DNA from: a virus
Length of the DNA stretch: 64,000 bases
Strand: one strand, 5' to 3'
IMG/VR virus record: IMGVR_UViG_3300035703_000034
Span: 42,381 to 106,380 of that record
Notes under the pieces: model-generated
The model's database searches: none
Seen by the model: the letters and a program-made list of their open reading frames with translations, nothing else
Told to the model about the DNA's origin: nothing
Part shown: positions 6,157 through 37,606 of the stretch, in pieces
Layout: every line of letters starts with the position of its first letter
How positions within the stretch are numbered: the first letter of the stretch is position 1
Program-made: the position numbers and the translations under genes

Positions 6157-6366
6157 ATGAGCTGGGAGCACGAGCGCCACGCGCGGATCCAGGAAGCCAC
6201 GGCCATGCTCAAGGCGGCCCGCGACGTGCTCGAGCACGCGCTGCCGCTCGTCGAGACCGGCGGCATGGACCCCGCGCAGGCGATCCTGGCAAAGAAGGCC
6301 AGCATCTACAAGAACCTGAAGTACGCCGACCTCGCGCAGGCGTACCGGTCCGCACAGGGACACTGA
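6157..6366 (+). CDS. Hypothetical protein
   Basis: GGAGG SD; tightly packed in head operon. Confidence 0.6.
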   Translation: MSWEHERHARIQEATAMLKAARDVLEHALPLVETGGMDPAQAILAKKASIYKNLKYADLAQAYRSAQGH

Positions 6367-7917: not shown

Positions 7918-8862
7918 ATGGATCAGGATATGCACACTCTGCAAGAAGTTCGGATGAGGAACCAGGGGCTGGTTCAGATGCTCCGCTCCGGACCCGAGGG
8001 TCACGAGAAGGTGGCCTCGGCCATCAAGGAGGAGCTGATCCTCAACTACGCACGCGAGGACGGCCTGTCGCGCCGCGCGATGCCGATGCGCCCCGTGTCG
8101 AACGCCGAGCTCACGCCCGACGCCAACAACCCCGACGTGCCCGCCATGCTGGTCCCGGTGGAGCCGGTGCTCAACGAGTACCTCGCCACCTCCGTCGACT
8201 TCATGCAGCCGTCCAAGGAGCTCTGGTTCCGCTCCAAGGTGGCCTTCGTCTACTTCAAGCCGATCAAGACGAAGACCATCACGTTGACGGAAATGCAACT
8301 TCTTGCAAATAACTTTCCCATCAGATCTTACATCGAGTCTGTCGCGCGCAACGACATTCTCGCGGTTGAAGACATCGCCCTGATCGAAGCCATCGAGCGC
8401 TGCGTGGCGAAGTTTTCTGCGACCAACGCCTTGACTTCGACCGCACCTTTGGTGAAAGATGTCATCGCGGACGGCGCGAAGGCGATGACCCGCAACCGAC
8501 TCAATGTCGAACTCATTCTTCTGAATGAAATTACATATTACGACATCTTGAAGTGGAACTCTTCGGAAGTCGGCTCTCTTGTGCTGGACGACATCGTCGA
8601 GCACGGGCCGAAGGGCGAGGAGTTCAAGTACAAGAGCTGGCTGGGCTTCAAGTGGGTGTTGACAAACAACACCGACGTGATCCCCGAGAACATCCTGTAC
8701 TACCTGCCCCCGCAGCGCTTCCTGGGCGTGTCGTACATGCTGGCCGAGGCCGAGCAGTTCCTCGAGTTCCGGGACGGCATCCTGCGCACGAACACCCGCG
8801 AGATCATCGGCCGCAACCTGATGAACCCCCGCGGTCCCATCAAGCACACGCTGTCGGCCTAG
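7918..8862 (+). CDS. Major capsid protein (HK97 fold, putative)
   Basis: 314 aa; position after protease/scaffold/decoration; REDGLSRR, EDxxLI and YYLPPQRFLG motifs recalled from large-phage MCPs; N-terminal EKVAS possible cleavage site. Confidence 0.75.
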   Translation: MDQDMHTLQEVRMRNQGLVQMLRSGPEGHEKVASAIKEELILNYAREDGLSRRAMPMRPVSNAELTPDANNPDVPAMLVPVEPVLNEYLATSVDFMQPSKELWFRSKVAFVYFKPIKTKTITLTEMQLLANNFPIRSYIESVARNDILAVEDIALIEAIERCVAKFSATNALTSTAPLVKDVIADGAKAMTRNRLNVELILLNEITYYDILKWNSSEVGSLVLDDIVEHGPKGEEFKYKSWLGFKWVLTNNTDVIPENILYYLPPQRFLGVSYMLAEAEQFLEFRDGILRTNTREIIGRNLMNPRGPIKHTLSA

Positions 8863-10764: not shown

Positions 10765-11589
10765 TCAAGCGACCGGTGGGTCGCTGTCGAACGGTACGCC
10801 GTCCCCGGGGGCGGTCATCGACAGCGTCTCGCCGGCAGGCGGCTCGGGCAGCGGCCGCAGCACCGGCCTGTCGGGCAAGGACTGCGACACGGGGTCGCCC
10901 GCCTGCTCGGGCCAGACGATCTCCCGCGTGGTGTCGTCCGCCAGCAGCAAATTGGGCGTGGCGACCTCGCGCGCGAAGACGAGCTGCACGTTCTCCAGCA
11001 CCGTCGGGTTGGTCGCGCTCAGGCTGCGCGCGTGGCTCTGCAGCAGGCACTTCTCCCAGTACCACGACGCGATGTAGGCCCCGACCTCGTTGAACGACAC
11101 GAGGTACAGCCCGAACGGCACCTCGATGAGCTCGCTGGCCGTCGTCGCCTGCAGCGGCGTGCCGCGCTGGCTGGTCGGCAGCAGCGGCGCGACGTTGTAG
11201 CCCCCGCCGGTGTGGTACTCCAGCAGCCAGCGGTACAGCATCCCCAGCATGTTGCCCTGCGAACCGACCACGCGCTGCAGGGTCACGGCGTGCTGCATGC
11301 GCCCCGGGAAGTGCCGGGGCGTCGCCGCGCCGAACTCGTTGACCGTCGTCATGCTGCGCTGGCTGCTCTGCTCCACGGCCTGCAGCATGCCGATGGGCGT
11401 CAGCTGCTCGCGGTACGCGACGGCCAGCCGTGCGAGCGGCGGACCGGAGACCAGCAGCGTGTGGGACGGGCTGACCAGATCGCCCGGCAGCTCGTCCGCG
11501 AAGACGGGCTGCTCGAAGGCGTTGTAGGTCTGGCTCCGGACCGATCGGTACGCCGCGTGGCGCAGCGCGTCAAGCGAGAGCGTCGGCAT
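10765..11589 (-). CDS. Tail tube-like protein (paralog of 11604-12356)
   Basis: Shares SGPP, PIG, LQRV, YxWL, PFG and YxExCxL motifs with the adjacent tube gene. Confidence 0.65.
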   Translation of the reverse strand: MPTLSLDALRHAAYRSVRSQTYNAFEQPVFADELPGDLVSPSHTLLVSGPPLARLAVAYREQLTPIGMLQAVEQSSQRSMTTVNEFGAATPRHFPGRMQHAVTLQRVVGSQGNMLGMLYRWLLEYHTGGGYNVAPLLPTSQRGTPLQATTASELIEVPFGLYLVSFNEVGAYIASWYWEKCLLQSHARSLSATNPTVLENVQLVFAREVATPNLLLADDTTREIVWPEQAGDPVSQSLPDRPVLRPLPEPPAGETLSMTAPGDGVPFDSDPPVA

Positions 11590-32091: not shown

Positions 32092-33564
32092 ATGGCGGTC
32101 ACGGAAACGATTCTTCAGCAGGCGGAGACCTTCATCGTCACCGCCATCACCGAGGCCTTCGCGGCCGAGGGCGACAGCATTGACCTGCGGCCGGGCACGC
32201 CGCAGTACGACCTGTTTGTGCGCGGCTTCCTCGCCGTGGTCGCGCAGATCGTCGACCAGCTGCAGCAGGCCCAGCGCAAGGTGACGGCGCTGTCGGCCAC
32301 GGAGCTGACGGACGCGGAGCTCGCGGCGCTCGGGGCGCGCTTCGGCGTGAGCCGGCGCGTGGGCGCGACCGCCCAGGGCACGGTGCGCGTGAAGTTCCGC
32401 GAGCGGGTGGCCGTCACGCTGACGACGAGCGACGCCTTTCTGGCCGGGGACCAGACCTACTACCCGACCGAGGACGTCGCGCTGCTGGCCGACGAGCTGA
32501 CGCAAGAACCTGTCTTGAACTACTGGTACGTCAACGTGCCGCTGATGGCGGCCACCAACGGGACGGCCAGCAACACGGGGGCCGGCACGGCCTTCACGTG
32601 CGCCAAGCTCGCGGGCGACCCCGCGCTCATCGAGGCGGTGGCGATCACGCCGCTGTCGGGCGGCCTGGACCAGGAGGACGCGACGGCCTACTTCGACCGG
32701 TTGCAGGCCGCCCCCTTGATCCGAAACCTGGTGAGCCGCAAGTCGATCGACGCGGTGCTGATGGGCGAGTTCGCGGGCGTCATCGAGCGGCTGCTGGTGG
32801 TGGGCTACCAGGAGCCCGAGATGCAGCGCGATCGCCTCGAGGTCGTCGACCCCGTGCTCGGCCCGATGACCATGCACGTGGGCGGGCACACGGACATCTA
32901 CGTCAAGACGCCCATCCGGCGCGAGACGGTGGAGTTCACGGTCTCGCCCGGCAACTACGTGATCGACCTCACGGACTACCGCGCGGTGCTGAAGGTCCAC
33001 AACGTGACCCTCAAGGGGAACGGCGACGTCAGCCCGTACTTCGAGCTGCGCGTGGCCGACCCGGCGCTGCGCTACTCGGCACTCGACACCGTGCAGCTGT
33101 TCGTCGACCCCGGCCTCTCCGAGGAGACCATCCAGGTCGACCTCTCGTACGCGCCGGACGTCGTGAGCATCCATGCGTACGTCAACGGCGACGAGCAGCG
33201 CATCACGAACGCCAACACGCTCGTGCGCCACTTCGTGCCCGTCTGGCTCGGGGCCGTCATCTACGTGGCGGGCGACGACGCCGCGATCGCGCAGGCGAAC
33301 GGCAACATCGCGGCCTACCTGGACGGCCTCGCCAACGGCGCGCCCGTCGTCGTCAGCAAGCTGACGGAGGCCATCTACCAGGGCGGGGCGCTGAACGTGC
33401 TGCAGGACTACGACCTCATCGCCCAGATCATCTACAACGACGGCACGTTGCTCGAGCGCACGGCGGACGAGGTGCTGACGATTGCGGACGACCTGCCCAA
33501 GGGCTTCTCGCAGCGGGTGGCGACCTACCTGAACGAGGGCGTGACCCTCGTGCAGCTGGGGTAG
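32092..33564 (+). CDS. Baseplate J/gp6-like protein
   Basis: DLRPGT..YDL; R..GATAQGTV; GGLDQEDATAYFDRL; GGHTDIYV. Confidence 0.8.
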   Translation: MAVTETILQQAETFIVTAITEAFAAEGDSIDLRPGTPQYDLFVRGFLAVVAQIVDQLQQAQRKVTALSATELTDAELAALGARFGVSRRVGATAQGTVRVKFRERVAVTLTTSDAFLAGDQTYYPTEDVALLADELTQEPVLNYWYVNVPLMAATNGTASNTGAGTAFTCAKLAGDPALIEAVAITPLSGGLDQEDATAYFDRLQAAPLIRNLVSRKSIDAVLMGEFAGVIERLLVVGYQEPEMQRDRLEVVDPVLGPMTMHVGGHTDIYVKTPIRRETVEFTVSPGNYVIDLTDYRAVLKVHNVTLKGNGDVSPYFELRVADPALRYSALDTVQLFVDPGLSEETIQVDLSYAPDVVSIHAYVNGDEQRITNANTLVRHFVPVWLGAVIYVAGDDAAIAQANGNIAAYLDGLANGAPVVVSKLTEAIYQGGALNVLQDYDLIAQIIYNDGTLLERTADEVLTIADDLPKGFSQRVATYLNEGVTLVQLG

Positions 33565-33950: not shown

Positions 33951-34370
33951 ATGAACCCCTATTTCGCCTATATATCTATGAAGGCCGCTTCTGACTTTTC
34001 AGACGCGCTGGACCTTTACGTGGTGGCCCACGACGCCCCGCTGAGCGAGCACATGCGCGCCCAGAACCGGGGCTACATCCCGCTGCACATGCTGAAGGAC
34101 AAGGGGCGCGACAGTCACCTCGTCTACGTGCACCGGATGAGCTACAACCCGGCGATGCACCTGAAGTCGGCCGACCCAGCAAAGTTCCACGCCCTGGTGC
34201 GCACGCACCTGGGCGGCCCCCCGGTCGTCGTGCCCGCCGCCCCGGCGGCCCTCCCCCCACCCCCCGGGGTGGGGGTGGCCCCGGGTGGGCAGACCGCTGT
34301 GGCGGTCCCCCCGGTGCCCGTGAAGCCGGTGGTTCCGGTTGCACCCCCTCCCCCGGGGGTGGGGGGCTAA
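33951..34370 (+). CDS. Hypothetical protein with Pro-rich C-terminus
   Basis: ORF ends the structural block; KAAS motif. Confidence 0.5.
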   Translation: MNPYFAYISMKAASDFSDALDLYVVAHDAPLSEHMRAQNRGYIPLHMLKDKGRDSHLVYVHRMSYNPAMHLKSADPAKFHALVRTHLGGPPVVVPAAPAALPPPPGVGVAPGGQTAVAVPPVPVKPVVPVAPPPPGVGG

Positions 34371-34400
34371 AAAAGACCCCCGAAACCCCTATATATACTT

Positions 34401-34962
34401 GACCCCCACATTAGCCCTTGAACAAAGGCTGGTGTGGGGTTCTTGGTTTGAGTCGGGCCTGCAGCCCGGCGTCCGTGGAAACGGAAGGCTCGCTGTGCGA
34501 GGCCGGCGAGGGTGCCATACGGACGGCACCCGTTGACCCGGTCTTTCAGAGTTAAGGGGAACCTCGCCACTGTTTGGTCAGGCGAGGCTGCGAGAATGAC
34601 CACCCCACCGTCCCGGCTTTGGGACGTTAAGCGGATACGCGACCGCGAAGGCCTGTCCCCTCGGGGGCAGAAGACTGGCATTCCCGAACCGGCCCCACGG
34701 ATGGGTGGGCCGGCTGCCAGACACATCTAGGGAGCTGCCGGGGTTTCCCGGCCCATGTCCCGCAAGCGACCACCTCTCCGTGGTGCGGGATAGTAACGTG
34801 CGGAGCGCTCCGCACGGCTGACGGTCGCAAGCCCCTATCGCGTGGGCAGTACGCGAGAGGTCTGGTCACGTGGACAGGCATCACGTGACGAACCCGACGC
34901 AGGGGTTGCCTGCGCACGTTCCCCACCCGCCCCCGGTCCGCTCTTGCGGCCGGGGGCTTTTT
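34401..34962 (+). ncRNA. Candidate large structured non-coding RNA (~560 nt)
   Basis: No credible ORF; about 15 back-to-back hairpins with G-U pairs on the + strand; upstream TATATA/TATACT; ends in an intrinsic terminator. Confidence 0.6.
34929..34962 (+). terminator. Intrinsic terminator
   Basis: GCCCCCGGtCCGC-TCTT-GCGGCCGGGGGC followed by T5. Confidence 0.8.
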
Positions 34963-34987
34963 GCGGTTCCGACCGCAGGAGGTTCAA

Positions 34988-35206
34988 ATGGACGGGCTTC
35001 AACTGCAAAAGGAACTGGAAGAGTTCGCCGAAGGACACGCCCAGCTCGAATTTGCAATTAACAAGATCAAGATCGGTTACAACGAGCAGCGCCTTCTGGC
35101 GCGACTCGACGCCGAGCAGGCGGCGACCGAGGCCGCCGGCGAGGCCGGGCGGCTGGAGTGCCGCTTGGCCGGCGGCCGCGTGGCCCCGGCCCCTCTGGCG
35201 GACTGA
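34988..35206 (+). CDS. Small hypothetical protein
   Basis: AGGAGG SD preceded by UNCG hairpin. Confidence 0.6.
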   Translation: MDGLQLQKELEEFAEGHAQLEFAINKIKIGYNEQRLLARLDAEQAATEAAGEAGRLECRLAGGRVAPAPLAD

Positions 35207-35317
35207 AGTCCGCCAGAGGCCCGCTCCGCAGAAGGAAAACTGCGTAACAAACCCGCCCCAGCCGGGCGTGACCGGGGACCCGCAAGGGCGAGACCGGAGG
35301 CGCGTTGGTATCAAAAA

Positions 35318-35378
35318 CTGACATCCAGGCTGCGTTAGCCTGCTGATGATGGCCCCGTCGCGGGGGCCGAAATGTCAG
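35318..35378 (+). ncRNA. Type III hammerhead ribozyme
   Basis: Stem III CUGACAU/AUGUCAG; cleavage triplet AUC; stem I CAGGCU/AGCCUG; CUGAUGA core plus extra U; stem II GGCCCC/GGGGCC; GAAA. Confidence 0.9.
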
Positions 35379-35435
35379 AAGTCTCGTGCTGTTTCGACGG
35401 CACGCAGAGGGCTGAAGGCCCGGGGAGAAAAGACC

Positions 35436-35795
35436 GTGAAGACCACGAATCGAGCGGAAGACCTGTACCAGGCGGGACAGTATCTGGGAACGATCACTGT
35501 CGTCGAGGGCAAGGAGGTAATCCTCCAGCCCTGGACCTACCGCCTCCGCTACGGCGGGGGCAAGCACGAGATCTCGTACGCCGTGAAGCGGGAGACAATT
35601 CCCGTCCTCCGGTGGGACGGCGACGTCATCGGGCGCAAGCCCACGGGCGTCGTGCAGGGGGTCTACCCCTTCGGGCCAGACTACGTCTCGGGCGGCCGGG
35701 CCCGTCTAGAGGAGCTCCTGGCGGCCCCCGAGACCCACGACCAGGAGTGCTACTGCCACTTGCACAAGGGCGCGGAGCGCTTGCTGAGGGTCTAG
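35436..35795 (+). CDS. Hypothetical protein downstream of hammerhead
   Basis: GGAG SD then GTG (MKTTNRAEDL); normal codon usage. Confidence 0.6.
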   Translation: MKTTNRAEDLYQAGQYLGTITVVEGKEVILQPWTYRLRYGGGKHEISYAVKRETIPVLRWDGDVIGRKPTGVVQGVYPFGPDYVSGGRARLEELLAAPETHDQECYCHLHKGAERLLRV

Positions 35796-35987
35796 CCAAC
35801 CGCCCGGCGACACGCACAGGTCCAGCCGTCTACCCGAGAAGGGCACAGACAGACGGCCCTCGTGCGTGTCGCCACCTCAACCCAGCCGGGGGTCAAGCCG
35901 GCGCGTCGGAAGTGGTCATGTCCGACGTCCCCAGTGTCAGGGGTTTGATGACACTATCACCTGCCGCTACGGCGGCAAGGAGGTCTG

Positions 35988-36473
35988 ATGAAGACCGAAT
36001 CCATGGGCGCCCCCCTGCACGGCGTGTGCCCGTCGGACCCCGAAGGGGTCTACCTCGGCCGCGCCACCTGGTGCGGGGTCGAGGTGGACCTCTGGTTCTG
36101 GGCCACGGCCTGGGACCGGGGGTCCATCGGGTACCGCCACGGCACCCGGGGGGACGAGTACGGGTCGATGCCCGTGCGCGGCCTCCAGGAGGCCGAGATG
36201 AGCCAGGCGCTGAAGGCCACCCCGGCCTTCGAGGCCTTCTGCCTGAAGATCAACAGGCAGAAGTCGGTCCTTGGCGAGGGCTACGTCCTCGCCGAGGGCA
36301 CCGTCTGGCGGAAGGCTCTCACGGCCGCCCGCCAGACGGGCCTGATCACGGAGCTGTCGCTCCAGGAGTCGGCGGACTTCTGGGCGGCCGGCGTGCTCCA
36401 GTGGGATGACCCCACCGGAGCGTCGCTGCGCTCGGCTTACGCCGAGGCGCGTTCCGCGATCGCAAGCCTGTAG
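35988..36473 (+). CDS. Hypothetical protein
   Basis: AAGGAGG SD preceded by C(UACG)G hairpin. Confidence 0.7.
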   Translation: MKTESMGAPLHGVCPSDPEGVYLGRATWCGVEVDLWFWATAWDRGSIGYRHGTRGDEYGSMPVRGLQEAEMSQALKATPAFEAFCLKINRQKSVLGEGYVLAEGTVWRKALTAARQTGLITELSLQESADFWAAGVLQWDDPTGASLRSAYAEARSAIASL

Positions 36474-36646
36474 GAACCCCCGCGCCGTGACGGCGCGTGA
36501 GTGGGGAGCTGTGCCGAACCCATAAGGCACGGTGAGCCCACACGTCGCAAACAGGCCGTAGGGGCGCCTGGTCAAGTCCGACGAAGCCCCAACGGACCCT
36601 CACCCGCGCGTGAGGGGGACTGGCCCCCCAATGGGCCGAGGTCAAC

Positions 36647-36823
36647 GTGGCGAGCACGCGCCTCGTCCTCCGTGACGGAGCCATCAAGCTCCTCACGGAG
36701 GACGGCGTGCTGTTCGACCTTCCGGTCAACCGGAAGGGCGAGTTGCCGCTCGGCGGCAACACGGACGCGCAGCTGCGCGTCCTCCGCCCGCTCCGGGACA
36801 CCGGGCGGGTCGAACAGCAATAG
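36647..36823 (+). CDS. 58-aa ORF embedded in a multibranch RNA structure (MASTRLVLRDGAIKLL...)
   Basis: GAGG SD then GTG; protein-like codon use; below ORF-track length cutoff. Confidence 0.45.
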   Translation: MASTRLVLRDGAIKLLTEDGVLFDLPVNRKGELPLGGNTDAQLRVLRPLRDTGRVEQQ

Positions 36824-36923
36824 GTTCATCCCTCTCCCTGGGGGCAAGCAGGGCGTCAGCGCGGGAAGCATACGACAACGCGCCAACCCGTACGGCCACG
36901 CCGTACAAACCAAACACAACGCT

Positions 36924-37015
36924 CACCCTCCAAGGTGGGACGTGTTTGTTTCACATCTCTTCACTCCATTGCGAGTGATCAGATGTGAAGCAGACGCGTC
37001 CCACCTTGGAGGGTG
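36924..37015 (+). repeat. 35-bp inverted repeat (long RNA hairpin)
   Basis: Arms 36924-36958 and 36981-37015; the three mismatches are all G-U on the + strand. Confidence 0.9.
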
Positions 37016-37099
37016 TGGATTACCGTTGCTTTTCCTTTAGCCCCGCTGAGCGTTCAGCCGGGGCGCAGTTGCCGTTCCGACGGCAGAAAGGAGTCCGAC

Positions 37100-37606
37100 G
37101 TGGACATCCTCCAGAACAACCCCACCACCTGGTCCAAGTGGACCTCGGTCGTCCTGACCACCGGCGTGCCGGGCGCCGGCAAAAGCACCCTCGCCGCCCG
37201 GCTCGTGGCCGAGTTCGGCTACGAGCAGCTGGAGCTCGACGAGCTCCGGGCCGAGCTCGGCGACCGGGCCGACCAGTCCCTCACCCCGGCCGCCGTCGCG
37301 CTGCGCGACGAGCGGCTCGCGGCGGCCATCGCGGCGGGTCGCAAGGTCGTCGTGAGCGACACCAACGCCCACTTCCCGTTCCGGGTGGCGCTCATCCGGG
37401 ACATCCTCAGTCTCGGCGTCCCGGCGGACGAGATCGCCATCGTCCACTTCAACGCGGACGTGGACGAGGCCAAGCGCCGCAACCGGGGGCGCGCCAGCGA
37501 GGTGCCCGAGGCGGTCATCGACCGGATGGCCGCGGCGCTCGAGGCCGCGCAGCCCTCGCTGGACGCGGAGCTCTACGGGCTCCAGTACCACGAGACGGAG
37601 CTCTAA
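37100..37606 (+). CDS. P-loop kinase (AAA_33/polynucleotide kinase-like)
   Basis: GVPGAGKST Walker A; VVVSDTN; RNRGR lid; AAAGGAG SD. Confidence 0.85.
   Translation: MDILQNNPTTWSKWTSVVLTTGVPGAGKSTLAARLVAEFGYEQLELDELRAELGDRADQSLTPAAVALRDERLAAAIAAGRKVVVSDTNAHFPFRVALIRDILSLGVPADEIAIVHFNADVDEAKRRNRGRASEVPEAVIDRMAAALEAAQPSLDAELYGLQYHETEL

What the first reader, a model, noticed from the sequence alone, without database searches (positions are those of the whole stretch)
34401..34962. Candidate novel ~560-nt highly structured ncRNA
Seen: about 15 hairpins. Examples are CCCCACATTAGCC/GGCTGGTGTGGGG (34404-34439, two G-U), TCCGT-GGAA-ACGGA (GNRA loop), GGGTGCC/GGCACCC, CCTCGCC/GGCGAGG, nested CTGGCA..CCGGCCC/GGGCCGG..TGCCAG, a perfect 20-nt palindrome at 34797-34816 and GTCACGTG/CACGTGAC. 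It is bounded by an AT-rich TATATACT element and an intrinsic terminator. I could not match tmRNA, RNase P or intron cores. Known: phages carry large ncRNAs of unknown function (GOLLD, ROOL). Speculative: two loops carry ACGGA (34519, 34697), as in CsrA/Rsm-binding RNAs, so it may act as a protein sponge.
Basis: partly seen in the sequence, partly recalled or inferred. Interest (0 to 1): 0.82.

Follow-up and report, generated by a model that had tools for sequence, protein, structure and literature searches.

The report
Self-cutting ribozyme inside phage leader RNA
The hairpin-rich 560-base non-coding stretch is real, but it is best read as a composite leader RNA at the head of a large phage's accessory genes. 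Its conserved core is an unannotated hepatitis-delta-type self-cutting ribozyme, which is a new example of a known kind of RNA.

Summary
Window 34401-34962 is non-coding, has about 17 predicted hairpins, and lies between a conserved AT-rich promoter-like element and an intrinsic terminator.

The reading as one novel 560-nt ncRNA is not supported. At 34757-34828 sits a complete HDV-like self-cleaving ribozyme. It has:
- P1 with the G.U pair at the cut site
- the P2 and P1.1 pseudoknots
- P3 and L3
- a J4/2 cytosine at 34818

Rfam scores it below threshold (30.6 bits against a cut-off of 44). A related phage (L003) carries the same ribozyme at the same place, with compensatory changes in P1, P4 and P1.1. 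Ten further phage copies keep all helices with covariation, and an ORF start lies 11-83 nt downstream of each.

The rest of the stretch is poorly conserved. L003 has a 200-nt leader, and L004 has no long leader and no ribozyme. The shared parts are the promoter-like element, a 5' hairpin and a small hairpin-GUUAA element unique to these leaders.

The most likely role is transcript processing. The ribozyme cuts off the leader, and a type III hammerhead at 35318-35378 cuts again.

The CsrA-sponge idea is not supported. No RNA data could be obtained. This scan has noted HDV-like ribozymes punctuating phage operons on other DNA before.

The parts
34386..34402 (+). Conserved AT-rich promoter-like element. 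It has a -10-like hexamer at 34394-34399, so the inferred transcription start is about 34406.
   Evidence: It is unique in the 106-kb record. Near-identical elements lie at the same relative place in L003 (about 8310-8322) and L004 (about 10806-10820). A second similar element in L004 lies at 11147. The simple sigma-70 scan finds no -35/-10 pair, so promoter function is inferred.
34404..34439 (+). 5'-terminal hairpin of the inferred transcript, containing two G.U pairs.
   Evidence: It is present in the MFE fold. L003 has a different hairpin at the same position directly after the promoter-like element.
34609..34630 (+). Conserved hairpin followed by GUUAA. The stem arms are conserved and the loop is variable. 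It is probably a protein-binding or processing site; its role is unknown.
   Evidence: A pattern search of the three whole phage records finds it once in G000, once in G002 (L004) and twice in the G001 (L003) leader, plus one shorter match elsewhere in G001. Reversed-pattern controls give 0 matches. The distance between the arms varies (6, 8, 8 and 10 nt), which favours an RNA hairpin over a DNA operator.
34737..34752 (+). Stable hairpin ending 4 nt before the ribozyme cut site. It would form the 3' end of the released leader fragment.
   Evidence: Mean pair probability is 0.98. In L003 the cut site is likewise preceded directly by a stem (by eye).
34757..34828 (+). HDV-like self-cleaving ribozyme. 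The predicted cut is between 34756 and 34757.
- P1: 34757-63 with 34785-91
- P2: 34766-71 with 34823-28
- P3: 34772-74 with 34782-84
- L3: 34775-81
- P1.1: 34792-93 with 34776-77
- P4: 34797-34816
- J4/2: 34817-22, with the putative catalytic C at 34818
   Evidence: The Rfam model RF02682 matches over its full length at 30.6 bits, E = 0.0019, below its cut-off of 44. The P2 and P1.1 pseudoknots, which that model does not include, are both present. The L003 homologue shows compensatory changes. Ten other phage copies show covarying P1, P2 and P1.1. It is the only copy in the window.
34829..34928 (+). Three hairpins (34838-56, 34865-89, 34898-34914) between the ribozyme and the terminator. No counterpart was found in relatives.
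   Evidence: These hairpins are absent from L003, where the ORF starts 19 nt after the ribozyme.
34929..34962 (+). Intrinsic-terminator-like hairpin (12 pairs, one bulge) followed by five U residues. It could be a terminator or an attenuator.
   Evidence: Function is inferred.
34963..35206 (+). Hairpin (34963-76), Shine-Dalgarno sequence (34977-82) and a 72-aa ORF (34988-35206) of unknown family. This is the first gene after the leader.
   Evidence: no Pfam family. note e1-6019475, reports similar hairpins abutting the SD of other early genes; I did not test this further.
35318..35378 (+). Type III hammerhead ribozyme candidate (context, outside the finding). The cut is after C35325. There is an extra U after core position A9.
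   Evidence: It is the only hit of a descriptor scan of the 106-kb record and nine related loci: stems of 7, 7 and 6 bp plus the full core. Rfam does not report it even in a 141-nt search.

Best explanation
The stretch is the transcribed, non-coding leader at the head of the phage's accessory or early gene block, which follows the baseplate genes. It is built from modules.

Order of the modules:
1. A clade-conserved AT-rich promoter-like element (34386-34402).
2. A 5' hairpin.
3. About 350 nt of poorly conserved hairpins, which include one clade-specific hairpin-GUUAA element.
4. An HDV-like self-cleaving ribozyme (34757-34828).
5. Three more hairpins.
6. A terminator or attenuator (34929-34962).
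7. A hairpin-SD-ATG unit (ORF from 34988).

The ribozyme cuts itself free of everything upstream, between 34756 and 34757. This releases a ~351-nt leader fragment with a 2',3'-cyclic phosphate end. The downstream RNA is left with a 5'-OH and a compact double pseudoknot at its 5' end.

Together with the hammerhead at 35318-35378, this divides the transcript into defined units. Their 5' ends then do not depend on the promoter context and are probably poor substrates for 5'-end-dependent decay.

Shown by sequence and comparison: the ribozyme fold, its conservation, and the link between this ribozyme family and downstream ORF starts.

Inferred: transcription from the AT-rich element, actual cleavage, and the effect on stability and translation.
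For: Ribozyme identity:
- Full-length match to Rfam HDV-F-prausnitzii.
- A perfect 6-bp P2 and a 2-bp P1.1 at the canonical positions, neither of which the covariance model scores.
- The G.U pair at the cut site, the U...G ends of L3, and a C in J4/2.

Conservation:
- L003 has a baseplate protein only 50% identical. It carries the ribozyme in the same gap after the same genes.
- L003 shows double changes that keep pairing in P1 position 2, in P4 and in both P1.1 pairs.

Family:
- Eleven copies from eight phage contigs keep P1, P2, P3 and P1.1.
- Among them are more than 7 different P1 sequences, more than 7 different P2 sequences and four P1.1 variants.

Context:
- In all 10 copies outside the window, an ORF of 66-190 aa or more starts 11-83 nt downstream on the same strand (8 of them at 11-33 nt). 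L042 has three copies in a row, each in front of a gene.
- A promoter-like element is conserved in three related phages. In L004 it drives an ORF directly.

Other points:
- The stretch is non-coding.
- A hammerhead follows 560 nt downstream.
- Published precedent: hammerheads flank genes in prophages and process polycistronic RNA, and one lies 13 nt before a start codon at a mapped 5' end (PMC3088659). HDV-like ribozymes sit at the 5' end of retrotransposon mRNAs (PMC6765202). HDV-like ribozymes occur in phages (PMC10879173 and PMC13635239).
Against: - There is no RNA-level evidence.
- The Rfam score is below the curated cut-off, and RF00094 gives no hit here.
- In this window the ORF starts 160 nt after the ribozyme, behind a strong terminator-like hairpin. 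In the other copies the gap is 11-83 nt. The simple 'ribozyme in front of the RBS' picture therefore fits this copy less well.
- No canonical -35/-10 promoter was found.
- Two family members (L098, L124) have no obvious J4/2 segment with a C. Not every copy need be active.
- Only one close homologue of this exact locus could be fetched.
Confidence: 0.72

Rival explanations
1. The upstream ~351-nt fragment (about 34406-34756) is itself a functional stand-alone non-coding RNA. The HDV-like ribozyme exists to give it a precise 3' end, as theta ribozymes do for phage tRNAs.
For: The fragment would begin with a stable 5' hairpin and end 4 nt after a very stable hairpin, which is the usual build of a stable small RNA. 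L003 has the same arrangement. It carries a clade-specific hairpin-GUUAA element found only in these leaders. Earlier notes of this scan describe ribozymes bracketing large phage ncRNAs on other DNA (I did not check these).
Against: The fragment is not conserved in length or sequence: 351 nt here, about 200 nt in L003 and absent in L004. Only short modules are shared. It matches no known RNA family. In the ten other family members the conserved neighbour is the downstream ORF, not an upstream RNA.
Confidence: 0.15
2. The leader is mainly a transcription-attenuation or antitermination device. The hairpin-GUUAA element would be a nut/put-like site that lets RNA polymerase read through the terminator at 34929-34962, and the ribozyme would be secondary.
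For: A strong terminator-like hairpin lies between the promoter-like element and the first ORF. The hairpin-GUUAA element is promoter-proximal in all three phages and occurs only there.
Against: L003 and L004 have the element but no terminator-like site before the next ORF. No antiterminator protein was identified among the neighbouring genes. This reading is entirely inferential. It is also compatible with the best explanation and does not exclude it.
Confidence: 0.08
3. It acts as DNA, for example as a replication origin, packaging site or other cis element marked by a unique AT-rich box and cruciform-prone repeats, and is not a functional RNA.
For: The AT-rich box is unique in a 68% GC genome. 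Both strands fold equally well. The stretch lies at a boundary between gene modules.
Against: There are no iterons or direct repeats. Several helices use G.U pairs that exist only in + strand RNA. The ribozyme's pseudoknots and its compensatory changes make sense only for RNA. Both flanking genes are on the same strand, and there is no GC-skew turn here.
Confidence: 0.03
4. It is a CsrA/Rsm protein sponge.
For: Two hairpin loops contain ACGGA (34519 and 34697). ACGGA occurs 3 times against a genome-window mean of 0.48.
Against: GGA overall is not enriched (11 against 8.0 +/- 3.6), nor is A-N-GGA (4, matched or exceeded by 10% of windows). Known sponges carry many GGA loops (my own knowledge). 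The L003 leader has no such loops. The host, and whether it has CsrA, is unknown.
Confidence: 0.02

Closest known systems
HDV-like (delta-family) self-cleaving ribozymes, e.g. drz-Fprau-1 (Rfam RF02682) and the Ackermannviridae phage ribozyme (PMC13635239)
   Same: Same nested double-pseudoknot layout (P1, P1.1, P2, P3, P4). G at +1 is paired to U. L3 is 7 nt with a U at its first position and a G at its sixth. There is a C in J4/2. The cut is at the very 5' end, so the ribozyme stays on the downstream RNA. P1.1 is not the canonical pair of G-C pairs, as in the Ackermannviridae example.
   Different: It scores below Rfam's gathering threshold (30.6 against 44 bits). P1.1 is A-U plus G-C. It is embedded in a 560-nt structured leader of a high-GC large phage. 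Cleavage has not been tested.
Theta ribozymes, the minimal HDV-like ribozymes of gut Caudoviricetes (Kienbeck et al. 2024, PMC10879173)
   Same: Phage-borne HDV-like ribozymes used for transcript processing, on the same strand as the neighbouring genes.
   Different: Theta ribozymes lack P4 and mostly sit just 3' of tRNAs. This one has an 8-bp P4, and the window has no tRNA. In that paper most of the theta ribozymes not associated with tRNAs lay more than 200 nt from an ORF. This family instead sits 11-83 nt before ORF starts.
Hammerhead ribozymes flanking genes in prophages and haloviruses (Perreault et al. 2011, PMC3088659)
   Same: Self-cleaving ribozymes between or in front of phage genes, proposed to cut polycistronic RNA into gene-length mRNAs. 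One halovirus example lies 13 nt before a start codon at a mapped 5' end. This window also has a hammerhead 560 nt downstream.
   Different: A different ribozyme class. Here an HDV-like ribozyme and a hammerhead are combined in one leader region.
HDV-like ribozymes in the 5' UTR of R2 and L1Tc retrotransposon RNAs
   Same: The ribozyme sits at the 5' end of an mRNA and frees it from upstream co-transcribed RNA. It remains as a structured 5' cap-substitute that may aid translation (PMC6765202).
   Different: Those are eukaryotic retroelements with IRES-like use. Here a Shine-Dalgarno sequence is present and there is no reverse transcriptase.
Large phage ncRNAs GOLLD and ROOL
   Same: Similar size range, phage origin and many helices.
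   Different: No Rfam match to either, at gathering or at E = 10. There is no conservation of the whole RNA among relatives.

Membership tests
HDV-like self-cleaving ribozymes | P1 helix starting at the cleavage-site G, with a G.U wobble as its first pair | tested here: met
   34757-63 pairs with 34785-91 (7 bp), and G34757 pairs with U34791. Eight of the 11 family copies have the G.U first pair. P1 is complementary in all 11 despite at least 7 different sequences.
HDV-like self-cleaving ribozymes | P2 pseudoknot between the segment 5' of P3 and the 3' end | tested here: met
   34766-71 pairs with 34823-28, 6 perfect pairs that the covariance models do not score. P2 covaries across the family, with 7 or more different complementary pairs of strands.
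HDV-like self-cleaving ribozymes | 3-bp P3 closing a 7-nt L3 that has U at position 1 and G at position 6 | tested here: met
   P3 is 34772-74 with 34782-84, and L3 is 34775-81. These are invariant in the family, so they are uninformative for covariation.
HDV-like self-cleaving ribozymes | P1.1: the two nucleotides after P1 pair with L3 positions 2-3 | tested here: met
   34792-93 pairs with 34776-77 (A-U and G-C). L003 has both pairs changed and still complementary. Four variants occur in the family, all paired.
HDV-like self-cleaving ribozymes | Catalytic cytosine (C75 equivalent) in J4/2 | tested here: met
   C34818 is the second nucleotide of J4/2, and the same position is C in 9 of 11 copies. 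L098 and L124 have no clear J4/2. The catalytic role itself was not tested.
HDV-like self-cleaving ribozymes | Score at or above Rfam's gathering threshold | tested here: not met
   RF02682 gives 30.6 bits against a cut-off of 44, and RF00094 is not reported. The same is true of the L042 copies. This is a database cut-off, not a structural feature.
HDV-like self-cleaving ribozymes | Site-specific self-cleavage giving 5'-OH and 2',3'-cyclic phosphate ends | not testable with these tools
   This needs in vitro transcription or end-specific RNA-seq.
Theta ribozymes (minimal HDV-like, tRNA-associated) | No P4, and a position immediately 3' of a tRNA | tested here: not met
   P4 of 8 bp is present (34797-34816). 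ARAGORN finds no tRNA in the window.
GOLLD / ROOL large phage ncRNAs | Match to the family covariance model | tested here: not met
   No hit at gathering threshold over the window or at E up to 10 over 34200-35450.
CsrB/RsmZ-type CsrA sponges | Many GGA motifs in hairpin loops, conserved among relatives | tested here: not met
   GGA count is 11 against 8.0 +/- 3.6 in same-genome windows. Only two ACGGA loops are present, and they are not conserved in L003.

The most novel reading that the evidence does not exclude
The HDV-like ribozyme and the downstream hammerhead together would excise a 569-nt RNA (34757-35325) that carries the 72-aa ORF. This RNA would have a 5'-OH and a 2',3'-cyclic phosphate, which are exactly the ends an RtcB-type ligase joins, so the phage could make a circular or re-ligated mRNA. 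The nearby stand-alone PNK-like kinase (37013-37606) could also time its decay by phosphorylating ribozyme-made 5'-OH ends. A second possibility is that the released 351-nt leader, with its unique hairpin-GUUAA element, is a new stand-alone phage ncRNA.
Probability: 0.1. Interest if true: 0.75.

Novelty: new member of a known kind. Interest (0 to 1): 0.38.

Why it matters
The work replaces a "mystery large ncRNA" with a concrete and testable anatomy: one specific cut site (34756/34757) and one predicted catalytic base (C34818).

It adds an unannotated HDV-like ribozyme, scoring below the Rfam threshold, from a high-GC large phage. With the ten related copies, it shows that this P4-bearing subgroup sits in 5' leaders just before ORF starts. 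That supports the view that phages use self-cleaving ribozymes as built-in transcript punctuation or 5'-UTR insulators, the same logic as the synthetic RiboJ insulator.

This is incremental, not surprising. Hammerheads in this role were described in 2011, and this scan has repeatedly noted HDV-like ribozymes punctuating phage operons on other DNA.

Two things remain open: the clade-specific hairpin-GUUAA element, and the reason this copy is separated from its ORF by a terminator.

Tried and rejected
- Rfam at gathering threshold over the whole window: no match.
- Permissive Rfam scans of 34200-35450, 34950-37200 and 35280-35420: only the HDV-like hit was meaningful. The miRNA-like hits reflect a long hairpin at 36916-37023. 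The hammerhead was not reported.
- ARAGORN: no tRNA or tmRNA.
- GenBank phage collection by blastn of the region and by tblastn of the baseplate protein: no match.
- The search for related loci with the single baseplate protein in viral contigs: nothing. With an alignment it gave 7 loci, of which only L003 has the ribozyme.
- Metagenome contigs: no closer relative.
- The upstream 139-aa protein as query: only the same two contigs.
- Exact subfamily pattern in viral and genome contigs: only L003 and L065 in viral contigs, none in bacterial genomes.
- A pistol-ribozyme reading of the hairpin-GUUAA element was considered by eye and dropped. Rfam gives no pistol hit, and the putative loop pseudoknot is not consistent among the four copies.
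- ORFs inside the stretch were rejected on flat codon-position GC. This includes the GTG ORF at 34842 that starts 13 nt after the ribozyme.
- My first Pfam and PHROG query for the downstream ORF used 34989 and was off by one frame. It was repeated correctly from 34988, with no family found.
- A weak second model hit in G000 (6214-6294) lies inside coding sequence and was dismissed.

Full report
**Where this is.** The window is the last 64 kb of a 106-kb IMG/VR virus record, about 68% GC and estimated about 51% complete, so it comes from a large phage.

- Upstream of the finding, on the + strand, lie baseplate genes: a Baseplate_J / PHROG baseplate wedge protein at 32092-33564, followed by two small ORFs ending at 34370.
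- Downstream, also on the + strand, come small ORFs of unknown family, a stand-alone AAA_33/PNK-like kinase (37013-37606), a pentapeptide-repeat protein, RadC and a MoxR-vWA pair. This looks like an accessory or early gene block.

**Check of the observation.**

That fold has 17 hairpin loops, about 12 of them well supported.
- The fold beats all 100 dinucleotide shuffles on both strands, with z = -4.96 and -5.54.
- After GC correction the stretch is the 4th most stable of 153 equal-sized windows of the record. The three windows that beat it are two from the adjoining 36.0-37.4 kb and one at about 52.1 kb.
- GC content is flat over the three codon positions from 34400 to 34999, unlike the flanking genes. 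The stretch is therefore non-coding.
- The TATATATA box is unique in 106 kb.
- A 12-pair hairpin followed by five U residues lies at 34929-34962.

**What the core is.** A permissive Rfam scan gave one meaningful hit: the HDV ribozyme model from F. prausnitzii (RF02682), matched full length at 34757-34828. The score was 30.6 bits against a cut-off of 44, with E = 0.0019 for the 1.25 kb searched. Read against the HDV fold, every element is present:

- P1: 34757-63 with 34785-91. Its first pair is the hallmark G.U.
- P3 and the 7-nt L3: 34772-84.
- P4: 34797-34816.
- A C at 34818 in J4/2.
- The two pseudoknots that the covariance model cannot score: a perfect 6-bp P2 (34766-71 with 34823-28) and P1.1 (34792-93 with L3 positions 2-3).

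**Comparative support.**

- The baseplate protein has 13 relatives in the protein collection. Seven related loci could be fetched.
- One of them, L003, has a baseplate protein 50% identical. It carries an 82%-identical copy of just this 74-nt segment, in the same gap after the same genes.
- The differences in L003 are compensatory. P1 position 2 changes from U-A to C-G, one P4 pair changes from G-C to U-A, and both P1.1 pairs change on both sides and still pair.
- A covariance model built from the two copies found nine more in unrelated phage contigs. One 7.7-kb contig, L042, holds three.
- All eleven copies keep P1, P2, P3 and P1.1. Between them they have at least seven different P1 sequences, at least seven different P2 sequences, and four P1.1 variants.
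- Nine of the eleven have the J4/2 cytosine. Two (L098, L124) have no clear J4/2 and may be variants.
- A broader model run without filters finds no second copy in the window.

I therefore take 34757-34828 as a genuine HDV-like ribozyme (about 0.9). Cleavage itself is untested.

**What the rest is.** The remainder is not conserved as a unit.

- L003's leader is about 200 nt, against about 351 nt here. It aligns poorly and lacks the three hairpins and the terminator that follow the ribozyme here. Its next ORF starts 19 nt after the ribozyme.
- L004 has a baseplate protein 50% identical. It has the same AT-rich element, followed at once by a hairpin, an SD and an ATG. It has no long leader and no ribozyme.

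The shared modules are:

- the AT-rich element with a -10-like hexamer, near-identical in the window and L004;
- a hairpin directly after that element;
- a small hairpin followed by GUUAA.

The hairpin-GUUAA element occurs only in these leaders. It appears once in G000, once in the L004 record and twice in the L003 leader, and reversed-pattern controls give none. The distance between its arms varies (6, 8, 8 and 10 nt), which argues for an RNA hairpin over a DNA operator. Its function is unknown. I considered a pistol-like fold and dropped it.

**How it most likely works.**

- In all ten copies outside the window, an ORF begins 11-83 nt after the ribozyme on the same strand, and in eight of them at 11-33 nt. 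The intervening sequence is an SD or a CA-rich leader.
- Several copies lie 200-350 nt downstream of promoter-like sequences, in the first leader of an operon (L065, first copy of L042).
- This family therefore appears to create the 5' end of phage mRNAs. HDV-type cleavage removes everything upstream and leaves the ribozyme on the downstream RNA with a 5'-OH.
- In this window the same logic applies, with one difference. Three hairpins and a terminator-like hairpin separate the ribozyme from the hairpin-SD-ATG of the 72-aa ORF at 34988.
- That difference gives two possibilities. A ~206-nt ribozyme-headed RNA may end at 34962, or the terminator may be read through conditionally.
- A type III hammerhead lies 560 nt downstream, at 35318-35378. 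It has a full core, stems of 7, 7 and 6 bp, and an extra U after A9. It was the only hit of a descriptor scan of the 106-kb record, although Rfam does not report it. It would cut again before the next ORF.

Published precedents exist for each part of this picture:

- Hammerheads flanking prophage genes and processing polycistronic RNA, and a halovirus hammerhead 13 nt before a start codon at a mapped 5' end (PMC3088659).
- HDV-like ribozymes at the 5' end of retrotransposon mRNAs (PMC6765202).
- HDV-like ribozymes in phages (PMC10879173, PMC13635239).

**Rivals.**

- *Functional 5' fragment.* The released 351-nt fragment could itself be functional, with its 3' end set by the ribozyme. It starts and ends in stable hairpins here and in L003 and carries the unique GUUAA element. 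Its poor conservation argues against this (about 0.15).
- *Antitermination.* An antitermination or attenuation role for the leader is compatible with the main reading but purely inferential (about 0.08).
- *DNA-level element.* This is unlikely. There are no iterons, some helices contain G.U pairs that exist only in + strand RNA, and the pseudoknot covariation is RNA-specific.
- *CsrA sponge.* The idea fails on motif density and on conservation.

**Novelty and limits.** This is a new member of a known kind. Earlier notes of this scan already describe HDV-like ribozymes punctuating phage operons on other DNA. Other first-reader notes on this genome flagged the hammerhead, the hairpins abutting the SD sequences and the PNK-like kinase, but not this ribozyme.

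The limits are as follows:

- Only one close homologue of this exact locus supports the comparison.

Noticed in passing
window 35318-35378 (+): Type III hammerhead candidate in the gap before the ORF that probably starts at GTG 35436. It has a complete core, stems of 7, 7 and 6 bp, the cut after C35325 and an extra U after A9. Rfam does not report it even in a 141-nt permissive search.
   Followed up: partly
window 36021-37400 (+): These are the most structured windows of the whole 106-kb record (GC-corrected MFE residuals of -100 and -69 kcal/mol). They include a 60-nt-arm inverted repeat at 36907-37032, which gives miRNA-precursor-like Rfam hits. They partly overlap ORFs with high GC3.
   Followed up: no
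window 34609-34630; L003 8386-8405 and 8501-8520; L004 11175-11192: A small hairpin followed by GUUAA, with conserved stem arms and a variable loop. It is found only in the leaders at the head of this gene block in three related phages. Its function is unknown.
   Followed up: partly
L042 5012-5082, 5532-5599, 6829-6900, 7507-7576: A 7.7-kb phage contig with three HDV-like ribozymes and a weak type II hammerhead hit. Each lies 11-15 nt before an ATG, preceded by a CA-repeat leader and no Shine-Dalgarno sequence.
   Followed up: partly
window 37013-37606 (+): A stand-alone AAA_33 / polynucleotide-kinase-like ORF lies 2 kb downstream of two ribozymes that would make 5'-OH ends. No RNA ligase or phosphatase domain was seen among the neighbouring ORFs searched.
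   Followed up: partly
L098 598-665 and L124 2188-2249 (- strand): Two HDV-like family members with intact P1, P2, P3 and P1.1 but no evident J4/2 segment carrying the catalytic C. They may be a variant or inactive.
   Followed up: no
window 33951-34370 (+): The ORF just upstream ends in a 45-residue Pro/Val/Gly-rich tail that is absent from its homologues in L003 and L004. In L003 this ORF is fused to the preceding one.
   Followed up: no
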